This document shows, one piece after another, positions 31,255 to 43,558 of a stretch of 64,000 nt of DNA (positions within the stretch are counted from its first letter, which is position 1; each line of letters begins with the position of its first letter). Where the stretch lies: positions 29,517 to 93,516 of the forward strand of contig UQVR01000001.1 of the NCBI GenBank assembly GCA_900544625.1, given 5' to 3'. The position numbers were made by a program, and so were the translations under genes. A model generated the notes under the pieces. The model was not told the origin of the DNA and made no database searches. It saw only the letters and a program-made list of their open reading frames with translations. Source of the stretch: an uncultured Mycoplasmatota bacterium. Lineage in GTDB: Bacteria; Bacillota_I; Bacilli_A; RF39; UBA660.

Positions 31255-32807
31255 TAATAATTAAAAATATTAGAGTGTGTCCAAAAGAAAATATTGACAT
31301 AAAATACTTAGCTTCGAAAAAACTAAAAGTAAATCAATATGATATAAAAGATGTAACTATTCATAAAATGTCTATTGATGCTAGAAACAAGAAAATGTTT
31401 GCTTATGTATATGATTTGGATGTAACTATTGATAATGAGAATAAATATGTTGGTAAAGATGTAATTTTGGTAGAAAATGAAGATTATGTTTTACCTCAGA
31501 TGGGTAATAATATTTTAAGCAACAGGCCAATTGTAGTTGGGTCTGGTCCAGCAGGTCTTTTTTGTACTTATATGCTTGCTAAATACGGTTATAAGCCAAT
31601 ATTAATTGAACGTGGGGAAAAAATTGAAGATCGTGTTAAAAGCGTTGGAGAATTTTGGCAAAATAATAAATTTACTAAAAATAGCAATGTTCAGTTTGGA
31701 GAAGGAGGAGCTGGTACCTTCAGTGATGGAAAATTAAATACTTTAGTTAAGGATAAGGAAAATAGAATGCGGGAAGTATTTAAAATATTTGTGGAATGTG
31801 GGGCACCACAAGAAATTATGTATGATAGTAAGCCTCACATAGGTACAGATATATTAAGAAGTGTAATTATTAATATAAGAAAAAAAATATTATCTTTTGG
31901 GGGTGAAATTTATTATAATTCATTACTAGAGGATATAGTTATTAATAACGGAAAAGTTAGCCAAGTAAAAATAAATGGAAAATTAATTGGTACAGATATA
32001 TTAGTTTTAGCAATTGGACATTCTGCTAGAGACACATTTAAAATGCTTGTTAAAAATAATTTGAATTTAGTATCAAAACCTTTTGCTGTTGGAGTAAGGA
32101 TTATTCATCCTCAAGATATGATAAATGAAAATCAATATCCAATTAATTACCCTTTTTTGCCTCCGGCATCTTATAAACTGACTTATAAAAGTAAAAGTGG
32201 CCGTGGGGTTTATAGTTTTTGTATGTGTCCTGGAGGCTATGTAGTTAATGCTAAAAGTGAAAACGATGGCATTTGTGTTAATGGAATGAGTAATTATAAA
32301 AGAGATACAAAATACGCTAATAGTGCAATTGTGGTTACCGTTGGACCTAACGACTACGGTGTAAATATATTAGATGGTATGTATTTTCAAGAAATGATAG
32401 AAAAAAGAGCATATAAGATTTGTGATGGATTGATACCTGTTCAAGGTTATGAAGATTATAAAAATAATGTTGTTTCTAAAAATATTGATATAGATGCATT
32501 TAAAGGAAATATTGGCTATGGTAATATTAATGATATTTTTCCAGAGTTTATTAATGATAGTTTAAAAGAAGGAATAGATTATTTTGATAATAAAATTAAA
32601 GGCTTTAATGGTAAAGATGCAATTATAGCTGCTCCAGAAACTAGAACGAGTAGTCCAATAAGAATTTTAAGAGATGAAAATTTGGAAGCAAGTATTAAAG
32701 GAATATATCCATGTGGTGAAGGTGCTGGTTATGCCGGAGGAATTACCACAAGTGCTATGGATGGCATGAAAATATTTGAAAGTATCTATAAAACCTATAA
32801 AAATTAG
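31251..32807 (+). CDS. FAD-dependent protein (COG2509-like)
   Basis: Rossmann motif IVVGSGPAGLFCTYMLA. Confidence 0.7.
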   Translation: MIIIKNIRVCPKENIDIKYLASKKLKVNQYDIKDVTIHKMSIDARNKKMFAYVYDLDVTIDNENKYVGKDVILVENEDYVLPQMGNNILSNRPIVVGSGPAGLFCTYMLAKYGYKPILIERGEKIEDRVKSVGEFWQNNKFTKNSNVQFGEGGAGTFSDGKLNTLVKDKENRMREVFKIFVECGAPQEIMYDSKPHIGTDILRSVIINIRKKILSFGGEIYYNSLLEDIVINNGKVSQVKINGKLIGTDILVLAIGHSARDTFKMLVKNNLNLVSKPFAVGVRIIHPQDMINENQYPINYPFLPPASYKLTYKSKSGRGVYSFCMCPGGYVVNAKSENDGICVNGMSNYKRDTKYANSAIVVTVGPNDYGVNILDGMYFQEMIEKRAYKICDGLIPVQGYEDYKNNVVSKNIDIDAFKGNIGYGNINDIFPEFINDSLKEGIDYFDNKIKGFNGKDAIIAAPETRTSSPIRILRDENLEASIKGIYPCGEGAGYAGGITTSAMDGMKIFESIYKTYKN

Positions 32808-32837
32808 TTGATAAATTATTATTTGTTATGATATAAT
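32808..32837 (+). promoter_or_regulatory. Promoter TTGATA-18-TGaTATAAT
   Basis: Sequence ttgataaattattatttgttatgatataat. Confidence 0.5.
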
Positions 32838-32863
32838 CTTTAAGAAAGAAGTGAGGTGCGTTT

Positions 32864-32974
32864 ATGAAAACATTTAAGAAAAATTTACCTGAAGGTGTAA
32901 AAAAACAATTTGCTTTATATAAAGGTGTAAAAGTAAGATTAATTAACAAAAATAATAAAAAGAAAAGTAAATAA
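32864..32974 (+). CDS. 36 aa lysine-rich small protein (not in the ORF track)
   Basis: The ribosome-binding site GAAGTGAGGTG lies 6 nt upstream of the ATG. Product MKTFKKNLPEGVKKQFALYKGVKVRLINKNNKKKSK. Has its own promoter and terminator. Confidence 0.45.
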   Translation: MKTFKKNLPEGVKKQFALYKGVKVRLINKNNKKKSK

Positions 32975-32995
32975 TATATTTTCGATCAATTTTGA

Positions 32996-33024
32996 CAGGA
33001 AGAATGAAAATTCTTCCTTTTTTG
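32996..33024 (+). terminator. Rho-independent terminator
   Basis: AGGAAGAAT-gaaa-ATTCTTCCT followed by T6. Confidence 0.8.
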
Positions 33025-33087
33025 ATAAAATAATTTATTTATATAAAGAAGTGGATGTGGTAAAGTAGTGGGCAGGGAGTTGATTTA

Positions 33088-33561
33088 ATGAAGATTGTTA
33101 TTATAGTGTTTTTTTGTTTGTTATTATGTGGATGTAATTATAATATAGAAGCAATTGAAGAAAGTAATTATCATGAAGAAATACTAACTTATTATGGAGT
33201 ACTTATTATTCCTAAAATAAATATGTATTTAGGTTTTTATGATGAAAATAATAAAAATAATGATGTAAATAAAAATGTAATGTTGATTAATACTAATATA
33301 AAAAATACGTATTTATTAGCTGCTCATTCAGGAACAGGAAAATTAGCGTATTTTAATGATTTAAGATATCTTGATATTGGTGATGAAATTATTTTGAAAT
33401 TTAATAATAAAGTAAATCATTATATTGTAAGTAGTATTAGAAATGAAGTGAAAAATGGTAAAATTAATATAAAAATGGAAGAAAATCAAGTTATTTTAAC
33501 TACTTGTAATCAAATAAAGAAAGGATACCAATTAATTGTTGAAGGAAATTTAGTAAATTAA
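33088..33561 (+). CDS. Sortase-family transpeptidase-like protein with a lipoprotein signal
   Basis: Lipobox LLLCGCN. Catalytic-like His in LLAAHSGTG and Cys in ILTTC. Confidence 0.55.
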   Translation: MKIVIIVFFCLLLCGCNYNIEAIEESNYHEEILTYYGVLIIPKINMYLGFYDENNKNNDVNKNVMLINTNIKNTYLLAAHSGTGKLAYFNDLRYLDIGDEIILKFNNKVNHYIVSSIRNEVKNGKINIKMEENQVILTTCNQIKKGYQLIVEGNLVN

Positions 33562-33621
33562 TTGTTTTAACTATTAATTTTTTTAAATATTTGATATAAT
33601 TAACTGCAAGGAGATGTAGTT

Positions 33622-34017
33622 ATGGCAAAATCTAGAAGTGAACTTAGAAATATTATTATGGTTATTTTATATCAAATTGATATATATGAAACTCGTGGGG
33701 TCCCGTTTAATATTGATGAAGTAATAAAAGAGAATTTGAATGTGGATAATGAATTTGTTAAAGATATAGTTTATGGCGTAGCTACATATAAAAATAGTTT
33801 AGATGAAATTGCTAATAAATATATTGAAGGGTGGACCATTGATAGAATAGATAAAACTGGAGCTGCAATATTAAGAATGGGATTATATGAATTAAAATTT
33901 ACAGATACTCCAGAAATTGTTGTTATTAATGAAGCTATTGAATTAGCTAAGAAATATTGTGATGATTCTGTTAGAAAAATAATTAATGCAGTTTTAGATA
34001 AATATATTAAGGAATAA
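33622..34017 (+). CDS. nusB: Transcription antitermination factor NusB
   Basis: A 131 aa helical protein with NusB family motifs DRIDKTGAAILRMGLYEL. Confidence 0.85.
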   Translation: MAKSRSELRNIIMVILYQIDIYETRGVPFNIDEVIKENLNVDNEFVKDIVYGVATYKNSLDEIANKYIEGWTIDRIDKTGAAILRMGLYELKFTDTPEIVVINEAIELAKKYCDDSVRKIINAVLDKYIKE

Positions 34018-34018
34018 T

Positions 34019-34819
34019 ATGTTAATACCAATGAAAATAAAAAGAAATTTGGCTCATTATGATGGTAAGTTCATAAAAATTAAAGGTAAAGAATATTATT
34101 GTAAAAATGCTATGGATCCAGGAGATCAATTATTTGCTAATGCTATTGCAGAAAAACTTGGTATTATATGTGCAAAAGACTATATTATTGAGGTTGATGG
34201 AGATTATTATTATTTAAGTTATAGTTTTAATAATGATGGAATTTTTAAAGATGGAAATCGATTAGGGATTAAATCTAATGGATTATATGATATATGGATG
34301 TTCTTTGAAAAGAATTATCCAAATGATAGTGAAAAACTTACTTATCAATTAATTAGAGTTTATCTTTTTGATATTTTTATGATGAATAGTGATCGTAACC
34401 TAGGAAATTTAGGTATATTAATTCGTGATGGTGTAGCAGATTTATGCATTTTAGATAACGAATATGTTTTTAGTGATTTCGGAGCAAATTTATTACCAAA
34501 GTTATTTTTTGATGATAGGTTAAAAAGTTATAAGTGTGCTGATAGTTTAGATAATAGATTGCCTATATGTGTACTTAAAAATATTGAGTCTTTAGAGTAT
34601 TTTCTTGCAACTTCTGCTCAGGAATTTTATGATATTGTTTTAGAATTTTATAATACTTTAACTCCAGATTTAATTCTTTTGGAAATGAAAAAACTTAATA
34701 AAATGGGCTTTACTCTAGAAAATCAAGAACATTCTTTAATACTTTATAAAAAATATTATGAATTGATTGGAAACTTACTTTTAGAAAGGGGTATTTTAGA
34801 TGGAAAAAGACTATCTTAA
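34019..34819 (+). CDS. PI3K/PI4K-like (HipA-like superfamily) putative kinase, paralogue 1. Its catalytic loop reads SDRNLGN (His replaced by Asn).
   Basis: Alignable across its full length with the ORF at 36988-37797 (YYLSYSFNN, FDIFMxNxDRxxGN, FLxTS, YNxLTPD). Sits between nusB and xseA and overlaps both. Confidence 0.55.
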   Translation: MLIPMKIKRNLAHYDGKFIKIKGKEYYCKNAMDPGDQLFANAIAEKLGIICAKDYIIEVDGDYYYLSYSFNNDGIFKDGNRLGIKSNGLYDIWMFFEKNYPNDSEKLTYQLIRVYLFDIFMMNSDRNLGNLGILIRDGVADLCILDNEYVFSDFGANLLPKLFFDDRLKSYKCADSLDNRLPICVLKNIESLEYFLATSAQEFYDIVLEFYNTLTPDLILLEMKKLNKMGFTLENQEHSLILYKKYYELIGNLLLERGILDGKRLS

Positions 34820-36059
34820 TATTAGTGATTTAAATAATTATATAAAAAACATTTTAGATAAAGATTCTTTTTTAAATAAAGTTTATTTAAAAGGTGAAAT
34901 TAGTAATTTTAAAAATCATACCAGAGGACATTTATATTTTACTTTGAAAGATGATAATTCTAGAATAAGTGCTGTTATGTTTCAAAATAGTGCAATTAAA
35001 CTTACATTTGTACCTGAAGATGGGATGAATGTTTTAGTTGAAGGAAGAATAAGTGCTTATCCTGCACAAGGCAGTTATCAGATTTATATTGAAAAAATGG
35101 AACCTGATGGACTTGGTGCTTTATATATAGAATATGAAAAGTTAAAGAAAAAGTTAGCAAGTGAAGGATTATTTAACCCAGAACATAAAAAAGCAATTCC
35201 TAAATTTCCTGAAAAGATTGGAGTTATTACAGCATCAACTGGGGCAGCTGTTCGAGATATAATGAGTACAATTAGAAGAAGATATCCAATTTGTGAAGCA
35301 ATTTTATTTCCATGCTTAGTACAAGGATGTGATGCTGCGCCGGATATTGTTAGACAAATTAAAAAAGCTGATGCATTTGGTGTTGATACTATTATAGTTG
35401 GCCGTGGTGGTGGTTCTATTGAAGATTTATGGGCTTTTAATGAAGAAATAGTTGCGAAAGCAATTTATGAATGTAATACCCCGATTATAAGCGCTGTTGG
35501 ACATGAAATAGATTGGACGATTGCGGATTTTGTGGCTGATTTAAGGGCACCAACTCCAACAGGAGCTGCTGAAATGGCCGTACCCACTGTTATTGATATT
35601 AATACACTTTTAAATAATTATAAAATTAGACTTAATAAAAATATTAAAAATATGATAAATACTAAATTCATTAAATGGAGAAGCTTAAAAAATAGTTTTG
35701 TATTAAAAAATCCTATGAGTATGTATGAAATTAAAGAACAAAAATTAGATGCTTTGCTTGATAAATTAAATAAAGATATTAAAGTAATATTACAAAATAA
35801 TGAAATGAAACTAAATAAAATAAAAATGTCATACGTAATTCAAAATCCAATGAGTTTGATTGATAAGAAGAAAAATGAATATAATTTACTTATTAATACT
35901 TTGAAACTAGTAAATCCTCTTGGTATTTTAGAAAAAGGTTATTCTTTAGCAACTATTAATGATAAGGTAATTAAGTCAAGTAATGATGTAAATATTGATG
36001 ATATTATTAATATTAAATTACATGAGGGGAATATTAAAGCAAAGGTTGTAGAAAAATAG
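34800..36059 (+). CDS. xseA: Exodeoxyribonuclease VII large subunit
   Basis: N-terminal OB fold VYLKGEISNFKNHTRGHLYFTLKD and the catalytic core GRGGGSIEDLWAFNEE. Confidence 0.9.
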   Translation: MEKDYLNISDLNNYIKNILDKDSFLNKVYLKGEISNFKNHTRGHLYFTLKDDNSRISAVMFQNSAIKLTFVPEDGMNVLVEGRISAYPAQGSYQIYIEKMEPDGLGALYIEYEKLKKKLASEGLFNPEHKKAIPKFPEKIGVITASTGAAVRDIMSTIRRRYPICEAILFPCLVQGCDAAPDIVRQIKKADAFGVDTIIVGRGGGSIEDLWAFNEEIVAKAIYECNTPIISAVGHEIDWTIADFVADLRAPTPTGAAEMAVPTVIDINTLLNNYKIRLNKNIKNMINTKFIKWRSLKNSFVLKNPMSMYEIKEQKLDALLDKLNKDIKVILQNNEMKLNKIKMSYVIQNPMSLIDKKKNEYNLLINTLKLVNPLGILEKGYSLATINDKVIKSSNDVNIDDIINIKLHEGNIKAKVVEK

Positions 36060-36146
36060 GCTTGTGATACATTTTTGAACAAAAAATAAAAATAATATAC
36101 CAAAATAAAAATATGTAAATACAATTTAATTTAAGGGGGAATAAAA

Positions 36147-36974
36147 ATGAATGAATTAATATTAAATAATAGTATTTTTGAAAATATAAAACATATTGAT
36201 GAAAATGGTAATGAATATTGGTTTGCAAGAGAACTTCAAAATGTTTTGGAATATAAAAGATGGGATAAATTTAATAATGTAATTACTAATGCAACAATTT
36301 CTTGTAAGAATAGCAATTATGCTATTGATCACCATTTTTCCCAAGTGGGAAAAATGGTCGACATCGGATCAAAAACTTCCAGAAGTATTTCTGATTATAA
36401 ATTGTCCCGTTATGCATGTTACTTAATAGCTCAGAATGGTGATAGTAGAAAGAAAGTTGTTGCACTTGCTCAAACATACTTTGCTGTTCAAACTAGAAAA
36501 ATGGAAATTACTGAAAGAGAATATTCTACTTTAACTGAAGATGAGAAAAGATTTTATCAAAGAAATTTAACTAAAAGAGGAAACTATTCTTTAAATCAAA
36601 CTGCTAAAGGTGCTGGAGTTAAAAACTTTGATAAATTTCATAATTCTGGTTATAAGGGGTTATATAATGGTGAAACTGCTAATGATATAGCTAAAAGAAA
36701 AGGTTTAAGATATAGAGAAGATATCTTAGATAACATGGGTAGTGATGAACTTATTGCTAATTTGTTTAGAATATCTCAAACGGAACAAAAATTAAAAAGG
36801 GATAATGTAAAAGGAGAAACTAAAGCTAATGATGTTCATTATGAAGTTGGAAAAAAGGTAAGAAAAGCTATTGCTGATATTGGTGGAACCATGCCTGAAG
36901 AGTTTCCAACACCTGAAAAAAGTTTAAAAACATTAGAAAAAGAAAGTAAGAATAAATTAATAAATCATAGATAA
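36147..36974 (+). CDS. DinD/Bro-N-like (DNA-damage-inducible protein D family) protein
   Basis: The segment WFARELQNVLEYKRWDKFNNVI...SCKNS...DHHFSQ...DYKLSRYACYLIAQNGD follows the pattern of the DinD/phage antirepressor Bro-N family. Confidence 0.55.
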   Translation: MNELILNNSIFENIKHIDENGNEYWFARELQNVLEYKRWDKFNNVITNATISCKNSNYAIDHHFSQVGKMVDIGSKTSRSISDYKLSRYACYLIAQNGDSRKKVVALAQTYFAVQTRKMEITEREYSTLTEDEKRFYQRNLTKRGNYSLNQTAKGAGVKNFDKFHNSGYKGLYNGETANDIAKRKGLRYREDILDNMGSDELIANLFRISQTEQKLKRDNVKGETKANDVHYEVGKKVRKAIADIGGTMPEEFPTPEKSLKTLEKESKNKLINHR

Positions 36975-36987
36975 AGAAGGAATAAAT

Positions 36988-37797
36988 ATGAAACTAACTG
37001 AAAAGCAGAAAGCAGAATTATTATCTAAAGAGCATAATTATGTTGATATAGATGGTGTTCAATACTTTTGTAAAGTTGCTAAAAATGATTGTAATGAAAT
37101 ATTAGCGTATAGATTAGCAAGTCTTGTTGGTATTAATTGTCCACTTTATCACATTGTTAGAGTAAATAAAGACTTATATTATTTAAGTTATAGTTTTAAT
37201 AATTTAGGAAATTTTAAACGTGGAAAAGATTTAATTGGAATAGATTACTTTTCTAATACTATATATAATTTGTGGTATGTAGTAGAAAAAGAATATCCCA
37301 AAGAATGTAAAGATTTAATATTTGATTTAGTAAAAGTATTTATTTTTGATATATTTATGCTTAATGGAGATAGACATGCTGGCAATTATGCAATTGTAGA
37401 AGAAAATGGTAAACCTAACATTTATATATTTGATAATGAATCGATATTTGAATCTATTTTTAGAGTTGAATTAAGTCCTAAATATAGTAAAAGAGATTTT
37501 TTGGGAAATGGTACAAGAATAATAAATGATCCTAGTGCCACAATTGGAATGAAGCAAAATATGGAATTGTTAGAATATTTTTTAATTACTTCTTCTAAAT
37601 TATTTTGCGATTTAGTTATAGATTTTTATAATAAACTTACTCCTGATGTTGTGTATAATGTTATTTTAGAAGTAGAGAAGTTTACTGGAATAACTAATTA
37701 TGATAAAGATTATAATATGAAACTTTACAAGAAGAATTATGAGTTAATTGGTGATTTATTAAAAGATATGAATTTTATTAAAAAGGAAGGGAGATAA
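36988..37797 (+). CDS. PI3K/PI4K-like putative kinase, paralogue 2 (intact GDRHAGN catalytic loop)
   Basis: LNGDRHAGNYAIVEENGKPNIYIFDNESIF parallels the PI3K pattern GDRHxxN...IDFG. The conserved Lys lies in YFCKVAK. Confidence 0.55.
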   Translation: MKLTEKQKAELLSKEHNYVDIDGVQYFCKVAKNDCNEILAYRLASLVGINCPLYHIVRVNKDLYYLSYSFNNLGNFKRGKDLIGIDYFSNTIYNLWYVVEKEYPKECKDLIFDLVKVFIFDIFMLNGDRHAGNYAIVEENGKPNIYIFDNESIFESIFRVELSPKYSKRDFLGNGTRIINDPSATIGMKQNMELLEYFLITSSKLFCDLVIDFYNKLTPDVVYNVILEVEKFTGITNYDKDYNMKLYKKNYELIGDLLKDMNFIKKEGR

Positions 37798-37799
37798 AA

Positions 37800-38336
37800 A
37801 TGAATGATTTAAAATTAGTTATACCAGATAATAATGATAAGAAAAGCGCTCTTTTAATGCTTGATGAAATTAAAGCTGTTGATGCTGGGCTTCCATGGCA
37901 ATATTCAGGCCTTGCTAATTTGGAAGAGGCAACATCTTATGAAGATTGGGTTAAAGAAAAAACAAATGAAAAAAATGGTATTGATTTAAGAGATGGTTAT
38001 GTTCCGTGTACAACATTATTTTTAAAAAGAATGAGTGATAATAAAGTATGTGGTTCTATTAGTATTAGACACGAGTTAAATGACTTTTTATTTAAGTTTG
38101 GAGGTCATATTGGATATTCGATTACTCCGAGTGAACGTGGTAAAGGTTATGGTAAATTACAACTTAAAATGGGTTTAGAAATAGCTAAAAGTTTAGGTAT
38201 AAAAAATTGTTTAATAACTGCAGATGTTGAAAATATTGTAAGTAATAAGACTATTATTTCTGAAGGTGGAATTTTAGAAAATACTGTTATGTGGAATAAT
38301 GATCCTTTAAATAGGTATTGGATTAATTTAAAATAG
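37800..38336 (+). CDS. GNAT-family N-acetyltransferase
   Basis: Motif A HIGYSITPSERGKGYGKLQLKMGLEIAK. Confidence 0.7.
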   Translation: MNDLKLVIPDNNDKKSALLMLDEIKAVDAGLPWQYSGLANLEEATSYEDWVKEKTNEKNGIDLRDGYVPCTTLFLKRMSDNKVCGSISIRHELNDFLFKFGGHIGYSITPSERGKGYGKLQLKMGLEIAKSLGIKNCLITADVENIVSNKTIISEGGILENTVMWNNDPLNRYWINLK

Positions 38337-38367
38337 TTGGTATAATAATGATGAAAGGAAATAAGTT

Positions 38368-38586
38368 ATGGAAGAAAATAAGAATTTTGAAGAATCTTTA
38401 CAAGAATTAGAATGTATTGTAAAAGAACTTGAAAGCGGAAATGTTAATTTGGATGATGCAATAAATAAATATACACAAGCTATGAAATTGGCTAAATATT
38501 GTGGAGAAAAATTAAATGATGCCACTAAAAAAGTTAATAAAATCTTAACTGAAGATAATGAATTAAAAGAATTTAATGCAGAATAA
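38368..38586 (+). CDS. xseB: Exodeoxyribonuclease VII small subunit
   Basis: FEESLQELECIVKELESGNVNLDDAINKYTQAMKLAKYCGEKL is the canonical XseB coiled-coil motif. Confidence 0.85.
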   Translation: MEENKNFEESLQELECIVKELESGNVNLDDAINKYTQAMKLAKYCGEKLNDATKKVNKILTEDNELKEFNAE

Positions 38587-38595
38587 GGTGAGAAT

Positions 38596-40008
38596 ATGGA
38601 AGTAAAAGATATTACAAATAGAGATGTAGATTTTGCTAAATGGTATACAGATGTATGTAGAAAAGCAGATTTAGTAGATTATTCAAGTGTAAAGGGAAGT
38701 ATGATAATTAGACCTCTTGGATATGCCATTTGGGAAGAAATACAAAAAAATATGGATAGAATGTTTAAAGAAACTGGTCATGAAAATGTACAAATGCCAA
38801 TGTTTATCCCTGAGTCACTTCTTAACGTTGAAAAAGAACATGTTAAAGGATTTGCTCCAGAAGTTGCATGGGTTACATATGGAGGACAAGAAAAACTTGA
38901 AGAAAGAATGTGCGTAAGACCAACAAGTGAAGTATTATTTTGTGACCATTATAAAAAAATAATTAACACTTATAGAGATTTACCCATTCTTTATAATCAA
39001 TGGTGTACAATAGTTAGATGGGAAAAAACAACAAGACCTTTTCTTAGAAGTCGTGAGATATTATGGCAAGAAGGTCATACAATGCATAGAACTGCCGAAG
39101 AAGCAAGAGAAGAAACTTTAAGAATGTTTAACGTCTATAAAACTTTTCAAGAAGATTATCTAGCTTTACCCGTAATTACAGGAAGAAAAACTGAAAAAGA
39201 AAAATTTGCAGGTGCTGAAGAAACTTATACTTTAGAAGCTATGATGTACAATGGTTATGCTCTTCAAAATGGTACAAGTCATTATTTTGGTAATCATTTT
39301 GCTAAAGCGTTTGGTATTAAATTTACGGATAGTGATAATACACTTAAAACTCCATATCAAACTAGTTGGGGAGTTTCAACTAGAATGATCGGAGCAATAA
39401 TTATGACTCATGGTGATGATCATGGGTTAGTTCTTCCACCAATGATTGCACCATTTAAAGTTATAGTTATTCCTATCGGAGATGTTGCCACTGAATTAGA
39501 AAGTTTAAAAAACACTTTAAAAGAAAATGGTATTACTTTTAAAGTTGATGAATCTAATAAAACTCCTGGATTTAAATTTGCAGAAGCGGAAGTTAAAGGA
39601 TATCCAATTAGAATAGAACTTGGTAAAAGAGATTTAGAAAATAATCATGTAACTTTAGTAAGAAGAGATACTTTAGAAAAAATAATTGTTACTTTTGATG
39701 AAATAATACCTAGAGTTAAGGAATTACTTGTGATGATTCAAAATGATATGTTTGAAAGAGCAAAAGCAAGAAGAGATTCTATGATTTATGATGCAAAAAC
39801 TTATGATGAACTAAAAGAAATAGCCACAACAAAAGATGGTGGTTTTACCAAGATTAATTGGTGTGGCGATGTTGCCTGTGAAAATAAAATTAAAGATGAT
39901 TTTGGAATAAAGTCAAGATGTTTAATCGAAGATGAAGAGGTAACTGGACCATGTACTGTATGTGGCAGGAAAGCTAAAACAAGATTATATATTGGAAGAC
40001 AATATTAA
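38596..40008 (+). CDS. proS: Prolyl-tRNA synthetase (archaeal/eukaryote-like short form with a C-terminal Zn-binding domain)
   Basis: Class II motifs, an anticodon-binding domain and the C-terminus CGDVACEN...CTVCG; 470 aa without the bacterial editing insertion. Confidence 0.9.
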   Translation: MEVKDITNRDVDFAKWYTDVCRKADLVDYSSVKGSMIIRPLGYAIWEEIQKNMDRMFKETGHENVQMPMFIPESLLNVEKEHVKGFAPEVAWVTYGGQEKLEERMCVRPTSEVLFCDHYKKIINTYRDLPILYNQWCTIVRWEKTTRPFLRSREILWQEGHTMHRTAEEAREETLRMFNVYKTFQEDYLALPVITGRKTEKEKFAGAEETYTLEAMMYNGYALQNGTSHYFGNHFAKAFGIKFTDSDNTLKTPYQTSWGVSTRMIGAIIMTHGDDHGLVLPPMIAPFKVIVIPIGDVATELESLKNTLKENGITFKVDESNKTPGFKFAEAEVKGYPIRIELGKRDLENNHVTLVRRDTLEKIIVTFDEIIPRVKELLVMIQNDMFERAKARRDSMIYDAKTYDELKEIATTKDGGFTKINWCGDVACENKIKDDFGIKSRCLIEDEEVTGPCTVCGRKAKTRLYIGRQY

Positions 40009-40029
40009 AAATTTTTTTAAGCATTATAA

Positions 40030-40075
40030 TAAAAGTAGATAGAATGTAAACTACCTACTTTTTTATTTAAATTAT
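40030..40075. terminator. Bidirectional terminator between proS and the convergent flippase gene
   Basis: AAAGTAG...CTACTTT stem with T-runs on both strands. Confidence 0.5.
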
Positions 40076-41361
40076 TAAATGTATTTTTTTAAATATTTAA
40101 AGTTTAATAATACTACAAATAAAATGTTTACTATTTCAGCAATAACTAAACTATAAATACCAATGTGACATAAAGATAGAATAGACATAACAATTAGTTT
40201 TAATATAACACCCCATAAAGTTATATTCATAGTAATTTTAGCATAACCTAGTGCTTGAAGTGCTGATGTAAGAACACCTTCTAAGTAAAATAGAACAAAG
40301 AATGGAGAAAGTATTTTGATGTAATTTGAACCGTTCGTGGTGTTATATAAAGAAAATAAAAGATTATCTCGAAAAGTAAATATAATAAATGAGAAGAATG
40401 TACCAATAATTAATGAAAATATAAGTGCTTGGTGTATTCTTCTTTTTACCATTATGTTGTTTTTTTCACCATGAAACTTACTTATTTCTGGTAATAAAGA
40501 AGTTGATATTGCTGCAATAAAAAAACCAGGCATAGTTAAAAGGGCAAGCGAATAAGCATTGTAAGCTCCATATTCACGAAGTATGTAGGAATTTGTGTAT
40601 CCTGAAAAAAGGAGTAAATTTGTAAGAATAATTGGTTCTAAGAAATAACCAATATTTCCAATTATTCTACTTGATACGGTAGGTAGGGATATATCTAATA
40701 TATCTTTAGTATGCTTTTTACTAGGTAGTAATTTTGTTTTATAATTAATATGTTTTGGTAAGAAAAATAAAAATACTATTATTGAAGAAATTTCTGATAA
40801 AATAGTTAGAAGTATTAAACCTAGTACAGCATGCATAACTGAATTTTTCATTAATATGGGTAATACTGTAATAATAATTATTAATCTTATAATTTGTTCT
40901 ATAATATTACTTGTAGCATGAGGTATCATGTTTTGCTTGCCTGCAAAATATCCTTTTAAAACAGATGAGATAGATACAAATGGTAAAGTTAGAGAAAAAG
41001 CAAGTAATATTGGAGATGCAAGAGGTTCTTTAAGCAAGTTAATAGCTATAAAATCTTTAGTTAGTAAAATAAGTAAAATAAGTAAAAAATTAATAGATAA
41101 AATTAAGAATGTTGCTGATGTAAGAATTCTTATGGAACGCCCTTTATTTTCTGATACTAATTTAGAGATAGAAATAGGAATAGCAAGAGTAGATATGGTA
41201 AGTAATAATGAGTATGTTGGAGTTGCTATAGTAAATAAACTAATACCATATTCTCCGATTATTCTGGTGTAAATTACTTTGATTATAAAACCTAAAATTT
41301 TAGTAAGAAAACCACTTAAAATAAGTATTAAAGTTGATTTTATAAATAAGTTTTTTTTCAT
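40075..41361 (-). CDS. MOP-superfamily flippase (polysaccharide biosynthesis/Wzx/SpoVB-like)
   Basis: A 428 aa protein with about 12 transmembrane helices and the N-terminus typical of oligosaccharide flippases. Confidence 0.7.
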   Translation of the reverse strand: MKKNLFIKSTLILILSGFLTKILGFIIKVIYTRIIGEYGISLFTIATPTYSLLLTISTLAIPISISKLVSENKGRSIRILTSATFLILSINFLLILLILLTKDFIAINLLKEPLASPILLAFSLTLPFVSISSVLKGYFAGKQNMIPHATSNIIEQIIRLIIIITVLPILMKNSVMHAVLGLILLTILSEISSIIVFLFFLPKHINYKTKLLPSKKHTKDILDISLPTVSSRIIGNIGYFLEPIILTNLLLFSGYTNSYILREYGAYNAYSLALLTMPGFFIAAISTSLLPEISKFHGEKNNIMVKRRIHQALIFSLIIGTFFSFIIFTFRDNLLFSLYNTTNGSNYIKILSPFFVLFYLEGVLTSALQALGYAKITMNITLWGVILKLIVMSILSLCHIGIYSLVIAEIVNILFVVLLNFKYLKKYI

Positions 41362-41431
41362 GTAATGTGATTTCTCCTTTATTTAAATGCAATTTTGTTA
41401 TATAATAAATATATGTTGGAAGGTGGTTATT

Positions 41432-43558
41432 TTGCCAGATACAATTAATTTTGAAGAATTAGTTCCAAGACTTGAAAAAAGAGAACAATTTGAAACGATA
41501 AAAAAAGCATATTTATACGCTTATAATGAACATAAGGGGATGAAAAGACTTACTAAAGATGACTTTATTACACATCCTTTAGAAGTTACTAAAATTCTTA
41601 TGGATTTAAATGTTGATGATACTACAATTATTGCCTCATTGTTACATGAAGTTATTAACAATGGTAATAAGACTTATGATGATTTGGTTAATGATTTTGG
41701 AGAAGATATAGCTAAGATTGTTTTAAGCGTGTCTAAAATTAATAAATTAGAATTACCAGATAATAATGAATCTAGTGTAATATATTTAAGAAAAATACTT
41801 GTTGGACTTGCCCAAGATGTTAGAGTTTTATATATTAAGCTTGCAGATAGACTTCATAATATGAGAACTAATTGGGCAATTAATCCTCAAAAACAAAAAC
41901 AAAAAGCTGAAGAAACTATGTCTGTTTTAGTACCAATTGCTCATAGACTTGGTATTAATTCTATTAAAAGCGAACTTGAAAATTTATCACTTTATTATTT
42001 AAAACCAGATGTATATAATGATATTTTAGAAAAACTAAATGAAACTGTAGATGAACTAAATGGTTACTTAGAAGAAATGAAAGAAAGTATTATTGATATC
42101 TTAACTGATGCTGGTATTAAATTTGAAATAAAAGGACGAGTTAAAAGTGTTTATAGTATATATAATAAGTTATCTAATGGTAAAGAATGGAATAAAATAT
42201 ATGATATTTTAGCTTTAAGAATATTTGTGGAAGAAGAATCTGATTGTTATCAAGTTATTGGTTTAATACATTCAAGATTTAGACCAATGCCAAAAAGATT
42301 TAAAGATTATATAGCGAGTCCAAAAGAAAATATGTATCAAAGTCTACATACCACTGTGTTTGGAATAGAAGGACATGTTTTTGAAATTCAAGTAAGAACT
42401 TATGAAATGGATGAAATAGCTGAAAAAGGTATTGCGAGTCATTGGTCATATAAGGAAAAAGGTACTAAAAAGATTCAAAACGTTATGGAACAAAAATTAG
42501 AAATGTTTAGAAATGTTATTGAATCAAGTAATAATGATACTGATGCAGATTTTGAAAGTAAGGTTAACGCTGATATATTTAGTGATTTAATATATACATA
42601 TACTCCGAAGGGTGATGTTGTGGAACTTCCAATTGGTTCTACACCGATTGACTTTGCTTATAGAATTCACTCAAGAGTTGGAGATACGACGGTCGGAGCA
42701 ATTGTAAATGATCAAATTGTACCACTTTCATATGAACTTAAAAATGATGATGTTGTAAATATTAAAACAAATAACAATAGCACACCAAATAAAGATTGGC
42801 TTTCTTTTGTTAAAACAAGTCAAGCAAAAAATAAAATTAAAGCATTCTTTAGTAAACAAGATAAGGAAGAATATATTGAAAAAGGTAAAAATATTTTAGA
42901 AGCAGAACTTAGAAAAAGAAAAATGGCTTTTAATGAAGTATTAACTCCAGAAGTAATTGAAAAGTTAATTAAAGATTTGAAAGTAAAAGATTTGGATGAA
43001 ATATATTTAAGTATTGGATCTTTAAGATTTACTGCTGGTTATATAATTAATCTAACAAAAGCTGATAAGCACGAAGTTGATGATGCTTTGTTTGAAAGAA
43101 AATTATCGATTCCTAAGATTAATTACAAAAGCGATATTTTAGTTGAAGGTAATTCAGATATTATGGTTAATATTGCTAAATGTTGTATGCCTATTAAAGG
43201 TGATGAAATAGTGGGCTTTATTACAAAAGGACAAGGTATCAGTGTCCATAAAAAAGGATGTTCTAATGTACCTGATAATAGTGAAAGAGTAGTGGATGTA
43301 TCATGGAATATGGATGCAAGTAATTATTATTTTACTAATATTTATGTTTATGTTACTGCTGGTTTTGATTTACTTGTAAATATTATTACAGAAGTTGGTA
43401 AACTTGGTTGTATTGTAAGGTCTTGTAATACTAAAGAATTTGATAATAAAACTATGTATGAAATAAATATAAGAATAAAGGATAAAGTAGAACTAGATAA
43501 TGTTATGAAAAATATTAGAAAAATACATAATGTTATAGATGTTAAGGAGGAAATATAG
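41432..43558 (+). CDS. relA: Bifunctional (p)ppGpp synthetase/hydrolase RelA/SpoT (Rel)
   Basis: HD hydrolase HPLEV...DTTIIASLLHE, synthetase segment RVKSVYSIYNKL...ALRIFV, and TGS and ACT domains. TTG start after the ribosome-binding site GGAAGGTGG. Confidence 0.9.
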   Translation: MPDTINFEELVPRLEKREQFETIKKAYLYAYNEHKGMKRLTKDDFITHPLEVTKILMDLNVDDTTIIASLLHEVINNGNKTYDDLVNDFGEDIAKIVLSVSKINKLELPDNNESSVIYLRKILVGLAQDVRVLYIKLADRLHNMRTNWAINPQKQKQKAEETMSVLVPIAHRLGINSIKSELENLSLYYLKPDVYNDILEKLNETVDELNGYLEEMKESIIDILTDAGIKFEIKGRVKSVYSIYNKLSNGKEWNKIYDILALRIFVEEESDCYQVIGLIHSRFRPMPKRFKDYIASPKENMYQSLHTTVFGIEGHVFEIQVRTYEMDEIAEKGIASHWSYKEKGTKKIQNVMEQKLEMFRNVIESSNNDTDADFESKVNADIFSDLIYTYTPKGDVVELPIGSTPIDFAYRIHSRVGDTTVGAIVNDQIVPLSYELKNDDVVNIKTNNNSTPNKDWLSFVKTSQAKNKIKAFFSKQDKEEYIEKGKNILEAELRKRKMAFNEVLTPEVIEKLIKDLKVKDLDEIYLSIGSLRFTAGYIINLTKADKHEVDDALFERKLSIPKINYKSDILVEGNSDIMVNIAKCCMPIKGDEIVGFITKGQGISVHKKGCSNVPDNSERVVDVSWNMDASNYYFTNIYVYVTAGFDLLVNIITEVGKLGCIVRSCNTKEFDNKTMYEINIRIKDKVELDNVMKNIRKIHNVIDVKEEI

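What the first reader, a model, noticed from the sequence alone, without database searches (positions are those of the whole stretch)
34019..37797. Two paralogous PI3K/PI4K-like putative kinases inserted into the nusB-xseA-xseB operon
The ORFs at 34019-34819 and 36988-37797 align end to end. Paralogue 2 carries LNGDRHAGNYAIV...IYIFDNESIF, which mirrors the PI3K/PI4K catalytic loop GDRHxxN and activation-loop DFG (DDHxKN in HipA). Both are about 267 aa, much smaller than eukaryotic lipid kinases. Paralogue 1 is wedged between nusB and xseA, overlapping xseA by 20 nt, at the position Bacillus uses for folD. Paralogue 2 lies between xseA and xseB. Small PI3K-like or HipA-like kinases embedded in a core transcription/repair operon are not a described arrangement.
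Basis: partly seen in the sequence, partly recalled or inferred. Interest (0 to 1): 0.7.

Follow-up and report, generated by a model that had tools for sequence, protein, structure and literature searches.

The report
HipA/CtkA-like kinases inside nusB-xseAB operon
Two small HipA/CtkA-type protein kinase genes with no antitoxin partner sit inside the nusB-xseA-xseB operon of an uncultured low-GC gut bacterium; the first slot is kept across a whole clade, which hints at an untested link between such kinases and this transcription/DNA-repair operon.

Summary
ORFs 34019-34819 (266 aa) and 36988-37797 (269 aa) are paralogues (41% identity, E 2e-54). The first overlaps xseA by 20 nt.

A kinase of this family sits between nusB and xseA in every related lineage sampled, with xseA 67-99% identical and the kinase 25-98%. 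Nine of 11 sampled family representatives have this context. Some lineages carry tandem or fused copies. dN/dS is about 0.2, so the genes are functional but less constrained than their neighbours (0.01-0.12).

The xseA-xseB slot is accessory. The dinD+kinase block is absent from a same-species relative and is bounded by a 19-nt direct repeat.

There is no HipB/HipS-like antitoxin, and I found no literature on this arrangement. The function is unknown. I infer antitoxin-less Ser/Thr protein kinases co-expressed with the operon. This is a new variant of a known kind, of moderate interest.

The parts
32997..33018 (+). Terminator-like hairpin upstream of the gene string. It is the only such site on the + strand between here and the end of proS.
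   Evidence: No + strand terminator-like site lies between 33019 and 40008, which fits one transcription unit. This is a consensus scan only.
33088..33561 (+). Sortase gene, the first gene after the terminator-like site
   Evidence: Pfam Sortase 1.8e-11. It is syntenic in relatives.
33622..34017 (+). nusB
   Evidence: Pfam NusB 9.6e-32. Its stop codon lies 1 nt before the kinase start.
34019..34819 (+). Kinase paralogue 1 (slot A, 266 aa), a HipA/CtkA-like kinase. It has K29, D128, R129, N133 and D149, but E37 is Q and H130 is N.
   Evidence: The slot is conserved in all related loci. dN/dS is 0.20-0.27.
34800..34819 (+). 20-nt overlap of the kinase 3' end with the xseA start, consistent with translational coupling. 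The xseA Shine-Dalgarno sequence AAAGGGG lies inside the kinase gene.
   Evidence: Overlaps of 4-23 nt are kept in L001, L011, L014, L016, L017, L019 and L020.
34800..36059 (+). xseA (exonuclease VII large subunit)
   Evidence: Pfam Exonuc_VII_L 2e-92 and tRNA_anti_2 1.8e-31
36141..36159 (+). Left copy of the direct repeat ATAAAAATGAATGA(A/T)TTAA, spanning the dinD start codon
   Evidence: family D3, spacing 1653 nt
36147..36974 (+). dinD (DNA damage-inducible protein D, with a BRO-N domain). It is accessory cargo of slot B.
   Evidence: NCBIfam NF008573 1.3e-105; Pfam Bro-N; PADLOC PDC-S13 4e-104. It is absent, truncated or a pseudogene in relatives.
36988..37797 (+). Kinase paralogue 2 (slot B, 269 aa), a HipA/CtkA-like kinase with the full conserved set K29, E37, D128, R129, H130, N133, D149
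   Evidence: dN/dS is 0.215 against L005. It is absent in L010 and reduced to a remnant in L009.
37794..37812 (+). Right copy of the direct repeat, spanning the kinase 2 stop codon and the GNAT start codon
   Evidence: L010 has a single hybrid copy at the empty site.
37800..38336 (+). GNAT acetyltransferase, starting 2 nt after kinase 2. It is accessory cargo of slot B.
   Evidence: Pfam Acetyltransf_1 3.2e-6 and Acetyltransf_3 1.4e-5. It is present without kinase 2 in L010 and absent in L007, L008, L011, L014 and L017.
38368..38586 (+). xseB (exonuclease VII small subunit)
   Evidence: Pfam Exonuc_VII_S 3.7e-19
38596..40008 (+). proS (prolyl-tRNA synthetase), starting 9 nt after xseB and probably co-transcribed
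   Evidence: for the ORF. Homologues in L001 carry tRNA-synt_2b, HGTP_anticodon and ProRS-C_1. No terminator-like site lies upstream.

Best explanation
Both ORFs encode compact (about 265 aa), cytosolic, HipA-superfamily Ser/Thr protein kinases of the CtkA/HipT-like core-kinase type (Pfam HipA_2). They lack the HipA N-terminal subdomain and have no HipB/HipS-type antitoxin gene. They are transcribed as part of the sortase-nusB-kinase-xseA-(dinD-kinase-GNAT)-xseB-proS string. The slot-A copy is coupled to its neighbours at both ends: 1 nt after the nusB stop, and a 20-nt overlap with xseA. Shown: the fold and family; conservation of the ATP-binding Lys, the catalytic Asp-Arg-x-x-x-Asn and the Mg-binding Asp-Asn; purifying selection (dN/dS about 0.2); long-term retention of slot A across a clade of uncultured low-GC gut Bacilli (relatives of 'Firmicutes bacterium CAG:460'); and presence/absence variation of slot B. 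Inferred: they phosphorylate a protein substrate that controls growth, translation or DNA metabolism, as HipA (GltX) and HipT (TrpS) do. Also inferred: their activity is restrained by operon-coupled low expression, by autophosphorylation, or by a partner encoded in the operon, and not by a dedicated antitoxin. Paralogue 2, with dinD and the GNAT gene, is a dispensable duplicate in an accessory slot. Paralogue 1 (E37Q) and the degenerate halves of fused or tandem copies in other lineages may be weakened or regulatory (pseudokinase-like) versions.
Against: No biochemical data exist and no substrate is known. Paralogue 1 misses the Pfam HipA_2 cutoff on its own and carries E37Q at a position that is Glu in 120 of 126 family members, so it may be inactive. 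The canonical HipA/HipT Gly-rich loop with autophosphorylated Ser is not recognisable: only about 28 residues precede the Lys, and the HipT alignment starts at HipT residue 79. Stable retention in one slot with dN/dS about 0.2 is not typical of toxin or defence genes and fits a lineage-specific housekeeping role equally well. Co-transcription is inferred from gene spacing and a consensus scan only. The synteny sample was mostly ascertained through the kinase, apart from L026 and L032.
Confidence: 0.5

Rival explanations
1. The kinase is functionally tied to its operon partners. It either regulates exonuclease VII (or NusB) by phosphorylation, or acts as a 'guard' toxin that XseA/XseB (or NusB) holds inactive and that is released when a phage or stress disables ExoVII. 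On this reading the operon partner plays the antitoxin role.
For: The same family sits at the nusB-xseAB locus in three configurations: between nusB and xseA, between xseA and xseB, and divergently upstream of nusB (L032). The stop/start overlap with xseA is kept across lineages whose xseA is only 67-86% identical. No dedicated antitoxin is present. Other Hip kinase families are fused or paired with DNA-end-binding HIRAN domains (PMC8262856).
Against: XseA is highly conserved (dN/dS 0.01-0.08) while the kinase drops to 25-35% identity. That is hard to reconcile with a tight conserved interface unless it involves only the conserved core. Slots B and the L032 position can arise by local duplication or inversion, so they are not independent evidence. 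More distant family members occur elsewhere, after secA in L022 and in an unknown context in L025. No interaction or phosphosite evidence exists, and no multimer prediction tool was available.
Confidence: 0.2
2. The kinases are anti-phage or conflict genes, either single-gene abortive-infection kinases or remnants of toxin-antitoxin systems. On this reading they have colonised junctions of a core operon as a safe, expressed harbour, and the operon neighbours are irrelevant to their function.
For: PADLOC candidate-defence profiles match: PDC-M03A at 1.9e-9 and PDC-M66A at 5.9e-6 for paralogue 2, and PDC-M66A at 1.4e-5 for paralogue 1. The phage family phrog_3162 matches at 4.5e-12. The neighbouring dinD hits PDC-S13 at 4e-104. 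Slot B shows presence/absence variation, pseudogenes and a mobile-element insertion within one species. Copies are duplicated in tandem or fused. Allele classes are discordant with xseA divergence: L005 slot A is 48% identical while xseA is 93%.
Against: Slot A is always filled by the same family, whereas defence hotspots usually carry varied cargo. dN/dS is a uniform 0.2 or so, with no sign of gene-wide positive selection. The partner genes of the PADLOC candidate systems, such as DUF3037 for PDC-M66 (PMC12548924), are absent. tblastn against 50,697 phage genomes found nothing. nusB, xseA and proS hit no PADLOC model.
Confidence: 0.2
3. They are PI3K/PI4K-like lipid kinases or other small-molecule kinases with a metabolic role, filling the slot that folD occupies in Bacillus. 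This is the reading in the first reader's title.
Against: PF00454 scores 13.7 bits against a cutoff of 27.1. All closer structural and sequence relatives are protein kinases: CtkA, HipA, HipT, CotH and actin-fragmin kinase. The His of DRH is not conserved in the family (41 of 126). No lipid-binding or membrane segment is evident.
Confidence: 0.05

Closest known systems
CtkA (JHP0940), the Helicobacter pylori Ser/Thr kinase encoded on the tfs3 ICE
   Different: CtkA has 325 aa against 266-269 here. It lies on a mobile ICE and is linked to a type IV secretion system and host-cell signalling (PMC5536186). The kinases here are chromosomal, inside a core operon, and come from a different phylum. 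Identity is only 13-14%.
HipT of HipBST (E. coli O127, Legionella Lpg2370) and HipA of HipBA
   Different: HipA and HipT are encoded next to HipB and/or HipS, which neutralise them (PMC8262856; PMC9325769; PMC10627512). No such gene exists here. HipA and HipT carry a Gly-rich loop with regulatory autophosphorylated Ser about 30 residues before the Lys, and the proteins here are too short for it. Their targets (GltX, TrpS) are known, and none is known here.
Monocistronic Hip kinases (HipH/YjjJ, HipL) from the Gerdes et al. 2021 census
   Same: They are HipA-homologous kinases with no separately encoded antitoxin (PMC8262856).
   Different: HipH carries an N-terminal HTH domain, and HipL carries HipS-like and HIRAN domains. 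The proteins here are a bare kinase core. That census does not list an operon with nusB and xseA among its 10 gene organisations.
Type II PI4-kinases and PI3K catalytic domains
   Different: The proteins here fall below the family threshold, lack lipid-kinase accessory elements, and have closer relatives that are all protein kinases.

Membership tests
Pfam PF20613 HipA_2 (HipA-like kinase) | Whole-protein score at or above the Pfam gathering cutoff (27 bits) | tested here: met
   Paralogue 2 scores 27.9 bits and just passes. Paralogue 1 scores 22.6 bits and fails alone, but it is 41% identical to paralogue 2. 44 of 63 members of the wider family hit HipA_2 at E <= 0.01, with a best E-value of 2.5e-10.
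HipA kinase superfamily (HipA, HipT, CtkA) | HipA-type kinase fold | tested here: met
HipA kinase superfamily (HipA, HipT, CtkA) | ATP-binding Lys, catalytic Asp...Asn loop and Mg-binding Asp | tested here: met
   K29, D128, R129, N133 and D149 are present in both paralogues and in 121-125 of 126 family members. They align with CtkA D155 and D179 and with the HipT Lys.
HipA kinase superfamily (HipA, HipT, CtkA) | Conserved Glu that pairs with the ATP-binding Lys | tested here: inconclusive
   Paralogue 2 has E37. Paralogue 1 and its slot-A orthologues (L001, L005, L009, L010, L026) have Q37, and L011 has A37. The family has Glu in 120 of 126 members. The effect on activity is unknown.
HipBA / HipBST toxin-antitoxin modules | Adjacent antitoxin gene (HipB HTH protein and/or HipS) | tested here: not met
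   The flanking genes are nusB, xseA, dinD and GNAT. Intergenic gaps are 1, -20, 13 and 2 nt. No HTH or HipS-like ORF is present.
HipBA / HipBST toxin-antitoxin modules | Gly-rich loop with regulatory autophosphorylated Ser upstream of the Lys | tested here: inconclusive
   Only 28 residues precede K29. The alignment to HipT(Lp) starts at HipT residue 79, and no S-x-S-G-x-Q-x-K motif is seen. No structural superposition output was available.
HipBA / HipBST toxin-antitoxin modules | Growth arrest by phosphorylation of an aminoacyl-tRNA synthetase | not testable with these tools
   This needs expression and phosphoproteomics. proS is co-located here, but the linkage is not kept in L017.
Pfam PF00454 PI3_PI4_kinase | Score at or above the gathering cutoff (27.1 bits) | tested here: not met
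PADLOC candidate defence systems PDC-M03 and PDC-M66 | Kinase subunit together with the system's partner gene(s), for example DUF3037 for PDC-M66 | tested here: not met
   The kinase subunit profiles match (PDC-M03A 1.9e-9; PDC-M66A about 1e-5). No neighbour matches a partner profile or DUF3037. The composition of PDC-M66 is taken from PMC12548924.

The most novel reading that the evidence does not exclude
A lineage-wide, antitoxin-less HipA-like kinase is a working partner of the exonuclease VII/NusB operon. Either it is a guard toxin restrained by XseA/XseB and released when ExoVII is disabled, or it is a kinase that switches ExoVII/NusB activity. In either case, tandem or fused degenerate copies (and possibly the E37Q paralogue 1) would serve as pseudokinase regulators. 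This would be the first link between Hip-type kinases and ssDNA exonuclease or antitermination machinery.
Probability: 0.2. Interest if true: 0.75.

Novelty: new variant of a known kind. Interest (0 to 1): 0.5.

Why it matters
Hip-type kinases are known mainly as toxins of toxin-antitoxin modules, where a dedicated antitoxin controls them. Here a minimal Hip/CtkA-like kinase is kept under purifying selection without any antitoxin. It is coupled to nusB and xseA across a clade of abundant, uncultured human-gut Bacilli. If the linkage is functional, it points to a new regulatory or surveillance connection between protein phosphorylation and exonuclease VII or NusB. It would also show a new way to restrain a toxin-type kinase. 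If the linkage is not functional, it is still a clear example of accessory genes living inside a core operon of a reduced genome. The family has about 500 representatives at 50% identity clustering, all unnamed or called 'hypothetical protein', so the sequences are at hand for expression and testing.

Tried and rejected
1. Hypervariable gene or arms race. The large gap between kinase identity (25-50%) and xseA identity (80-93%) suggested diversifying selection. Nei-Gojobori estimates give a uniform dN/dS of 0.18-0.27, so this is relaxed purifying selection. The sharp divergence step at the kinase/xseA junction between L007 and L008 is a recombination breakpoint: dS is 0.82 for nusB, 1.12 for the kinase and 0.28 for xseA. 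Gene-wide positive selection is rejected. Site-level selection was not tested.

2. ProRS as the target. The idea came from analogy with HipA/GltX and the adjacency of proS. The proS linkage is absent in L017 and ProRS is a class II enzyme, so this is kept only as a speculation.

3. Phage origin. tblastn against 50,697 phage genomes gave no match. The BFVD fold search gave only distant PI3/4-kinase-like phage proteins. phrog_3162 is the only phage link.

4. The search for related loci with the broad family alignment A2 failed because no conserved 7-10-column stretch exists. Contexts were sampled one by one instead.

5. The xseA-centred metagenome scan returned mostly distant xseA loci. Only L026 belonged to the clade, so an unbiased occupancy estimate was not obtained.

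6. The afdb50 fold library was unavailable.

7. The Rfam scan of 32000-41500 found nothing. The promoter scan was not above chance.

8. Literature searches for PF20613/HipA_2, PDC-M03, and HipA-like kinase with exonuclease VII found no description of this arrangement.

9. NCBIfam has no model for the kinases. The GNAT protein has no sequence relative in the PDB.

10. The taxonomy look-up for the CAG:460 name failed.
Full report
**1. What is in the sequence**

The region lies on the + strand of a DNA with about 25% G+C and reads as follows:
- sortase, 33088-33561
- nusB, 33622-34017
- kinase paralogue 1, 34019-34819 (266 aa)
- xseA, 34800-36059
- dinD, 36147-36974
- kinase paralogue 2, 36988-37797 (269 aa)
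- a GNAT acetyltransferase, 37800-38336
- xseB, 38368-38586
- proS, 38596-40008

The two kinase ORFs align end to end at 41% identity, E 2e-54. Only these two copies occur in the 64-kb window.

Paralogue 1 starts 1 nt after the nusB stop and overlaps xseA by 20 nt. The xseA ribosome-binding site lies inside the kinase gene. The only terminator-like hairpin on this strand is at 32997-33018, upstream of the sortase gene, and none follows until after proS. No Rfam element is present.

It omitted dinD and the GNAT gene, which share the xseA-xseB gap with paralogue 2.

**2. What the proteins are**

Sequence profiles point to the HipA-like kinase family:
- Pfam HipA_2 (PF20613) scores 27.9 bits for paralogue 2 and 22.6 bits for paralogue 1, against a cutoff of 27.
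- HipA_C is sub-threshold, and PI3_PI4_kinase reaches only 13.7 bits (E 0.061).
- NCBIfam has no model, and public records call the protein 'hypothetical protein'.

An AlphaFold2 model of paralogue 2 (pLDDT 75.4, pTM 0.78) confirms the fold:
- Foldseek finds Legionella HipT, H. pylori CtkA and HipA as top hits (E 2.5e-6 to 1e-4).

A profile of 63 diverse family members hits CtkA at E 5.2e-8 and HipT(Lp) at 3e-4. It aligns K29 with the HipT ATP-binding Lys, E37 with the following Glu, D128 with CtkA Asp155 and D149 with CtkA Asp179.

An exhaustive profile search finds 513 cluster representatives at E < 1e-3. Most are 245-295 aa, and a few are fused doubles of 520-560 aa. Across 126 full-length members, K29, E37, D121, D128, R129, N133, D149 and N150 are each conserved in 113-125 members. 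The His of 'DRH' is not conserved (41 His, 36 Asn).

So these are compact HipA-superfamily protein kinases of the CtkA/HipT core type. They are not PI3K/PI4K lipid kinases, although they share the remote fold.

**3. Differences between the two paralogues**

Paralogue 2 has the complete conserved set. Paralogue 1 and its slot-A orthologues in L001, L005, L009, L010 and L026 carry E37Q and H130N, and L011 has E37A.

In fused or tandem arrangements elsewhere, the upstream copy is degenerate. The L017 N-terminal half has D128E, S67N and E37D. The L107 upstream copy has D128Y. Both classes are under purifying selection, so the Gln37 form is maintained and is not decaying. Whether it is catalytically weaker is unknown.

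**4. Genomic distribution**

Close relatives are 'Firmicutes bacterium CAG:460' and uncultured Bacilli MAGs from Hadza gut samples.

A family kinase sits between nusB and xseA in every locus of this clade that I examined. It almost always overlaps the xseA start (by 4-23 nt where gene calls show it). These loci are L001, L005, L007-L011, L014, L016-L021, L024, L026 and L107. Their xseA is 67-99% identical to the window's, while the kinase is 25-98% identical.

Of 11 sampled family representatives, 9 have this context. Two more distant ones do not: P0137 follows secA, and P0100 lies among unknown genes.

Variants include:
- tandem kinase-kinase-xseA (L016, L019);
- fused doubles (L017/L018 at 539 aa, and L107);
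- a copy divergently upstream of nusB-xseA-xseB (L032).

In outgroups with xseA at 59% identity or less, nusB and xseA are directly adjacent or separated by unrelated genes.

**5. Evolutionary rates**

Nei-Gojobori estimates give the following dN/dS values:
- slot-A orthologues: 0.20-0.27, with the L007-L008 pair at 0.18;
- slot-B orthologues: 0.215;
- xseA, xseB and proS: 0.01-0.12;
- GNAT: 0.17-0.30;
- sortase: mostly 0.27-0.45 (0.14 against L008).

The kinases are therefore functional genes evolving about 3-5 times faster at the protein level than their core neighbours. There is no gene-wide positive selection.

Kinase and xseA identities correlate across loci (Spearman 0.77), with outliers. 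L005 slot A is 48% identical to the window's copy although xseA is 93% identical. The L007-L008 comparison shows a sharp recombination breakpoint at the kinase/xseA junction. Some allele replacement therefore occurs on top of vertical descent.

**6. The second slot (xseA-xseB) is accessory**

Its content differs between relatives:

| Locus | Content of the xseA-xseB slot |
|---|---|
| L001 | kinase + GNAT |
| window, L005 | dinD + kinase + GNAT (dinD N-terminally truncated in L005) |
| L007 | N-terminally truncated dinD only |
| L008 | dinD only |
| L009 | dinD pseudogene + 44-aa kinase remnant + GNAT |
| L010 (same species; xseA 99.5% identical, dS 0.085) | GNAT only |
| L011, L014, L017 | nothing |

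The 1653-bp dinD+kinase block of the window is bounded by the direct repeat ATAAAAATGAATGA(A/T)TTAA at 36141-36159 and 37794-37812. L010 has a single hybrid copy at the empty site. This fits either deletion or insertion through the repeat.

Other strains of the same species show further changes:
- dinD carries an in-frame stop (L109).
- The GNAT gene carries an in-frame stop (L111).
- An element with a large serine recombinase is inserted in dinD at about 36488 (L115).

**7. Relation to known systems**

Canonical Hip kinases are encoded with HipB and/or HipS antitoxins. Ten gene organisations are described, none with nusB or xseA (PMC8262856). Here no antitoxin-like ORF exists.

The proteins also lack the HipA N-terminal subdomain. 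They probably lack the regulatory Gly-rich loop as well, because only 28 residues precede the Lys. Monocistronic Hip kinases (HipH/YjjJ, HipL) and CtkA show that stand-alone versions exist.

PADLOC candidate-defence profiles match the kinases (PDC-M03A at 1.9e-9, PDC-M66A) and dinD (PDC-S13). The partner genes of those candidates are absent, and nusB, xseA and proS match nothing. No paper in the searchable library links HipA-like kinases with exonuclease VII.

**8. Interpretation**

Shown:
- HipA/CtkA-type kinase fold and catalytic residues;
- purifying selection;
- tight operon embedding;
- clade-wide retention of slot A;
- dispensability of slot B.

Inferred:
- They are Ser/Thr protein kinases that act on a cellular protein and are co-expressed with nusB-xseAB.
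- They are restrained by something other than a dedicated antitoxin.

I give this general reading 0.5. A specific functional partnership with ExoVII or NusB, as guard or regulator, gets 0.2. A pure defence or selfish-gene reading gets 0.2. A lipid or small-molecule kinase reading gets 0.05.

The finding is a new variant of a known kind: a known kinase superfamily in an undescribed, conserved, antitoxin-less operon context. Interest is moderate (0.5). The context association is robust and testable, but no evidence on function or mechanism exists yet.

Noticed in passing
window 36141-36159 and 37794-37812; L010 8100-8170: The 1653-bp dinD+kinase-2 block is flanked by a 19-nt direct repeat (14 nt exact) that spans the dinD start codon on the left and the GNAT start codon on the right. 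A same-species relative (L010) lacks the block and has one hybrid copy of the repeat. This fits deletion or insertion through the repeat.
   Followed up: partly
L115 1-3001, joining window homology at about 36489 (inside dinD): In another strain of the same species, an element inserted inside dinD encodes a large serine recombinase (562 aa; Resolvase, Recombinase and Zn_ribbon_recom domains) and an HTH_36 protein. dinD may therefore be an attachment site for an integrative element.
   Followed up: partly
L109 2660-3487 (dinD) and L111 4313-4849 (GNAT): Within the species, dinD (L109) and the GNAT gene (L111) are each split by an in-frame stop while remaining about 99% identical to the window. 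The accessory genes of the second slot are being inactivated in some strains.
   Followed up: partly
window 34213-34234 and 37182-37203; protein P0018: The two paralogues share a 22-nt exact DNA match (encoding YLSYSFNN) within otherwise about 70% identical DNA. The database protein P0018 is a chimera that switches from paralogue 2 to paralogue 1 exactly there. This reflects either real recombination or an assembly artefact.
   Followed up: no
L007 and L008, locus coordinates about 6800: DNA identity jumps from about 72% to about 97% exactly at the kinase/xseA junction. dS is 0.82 for nusB, 1.12 for the kinase and 0.28 for xseA. This indicates a recombination breakpoint at the gene overlap.
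   Followed up: yes
L017 4001-5620 (P0024, 539 aa); L107 2-1240 (P0092, 412 aa); L016 and L019: Some lineages carry tandem or fused double kinases upstream of xseA. The upstream half is degenerate at catalytic positions (D128E, S67N and E37D in L017; D128Y in L107). This looks like a pseudokinase-kinase pair.
   Followed up: partly
L032 2606-3487 (minus strand): In a more distant lineage (xseA about 55% identical), a family kinase lies divergently upstream of nusB-xseA-xseB instead of inside the operon.
   Followed up: partly
window 38596-40008 versus L010 8949-10358: proS has a much higher synonymous divergence (dS 0.25) than the neighbouring genes (0.01-0.09) in the same-species comparison. 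This suggests mosaic recombination in this region.
   Followed up: no
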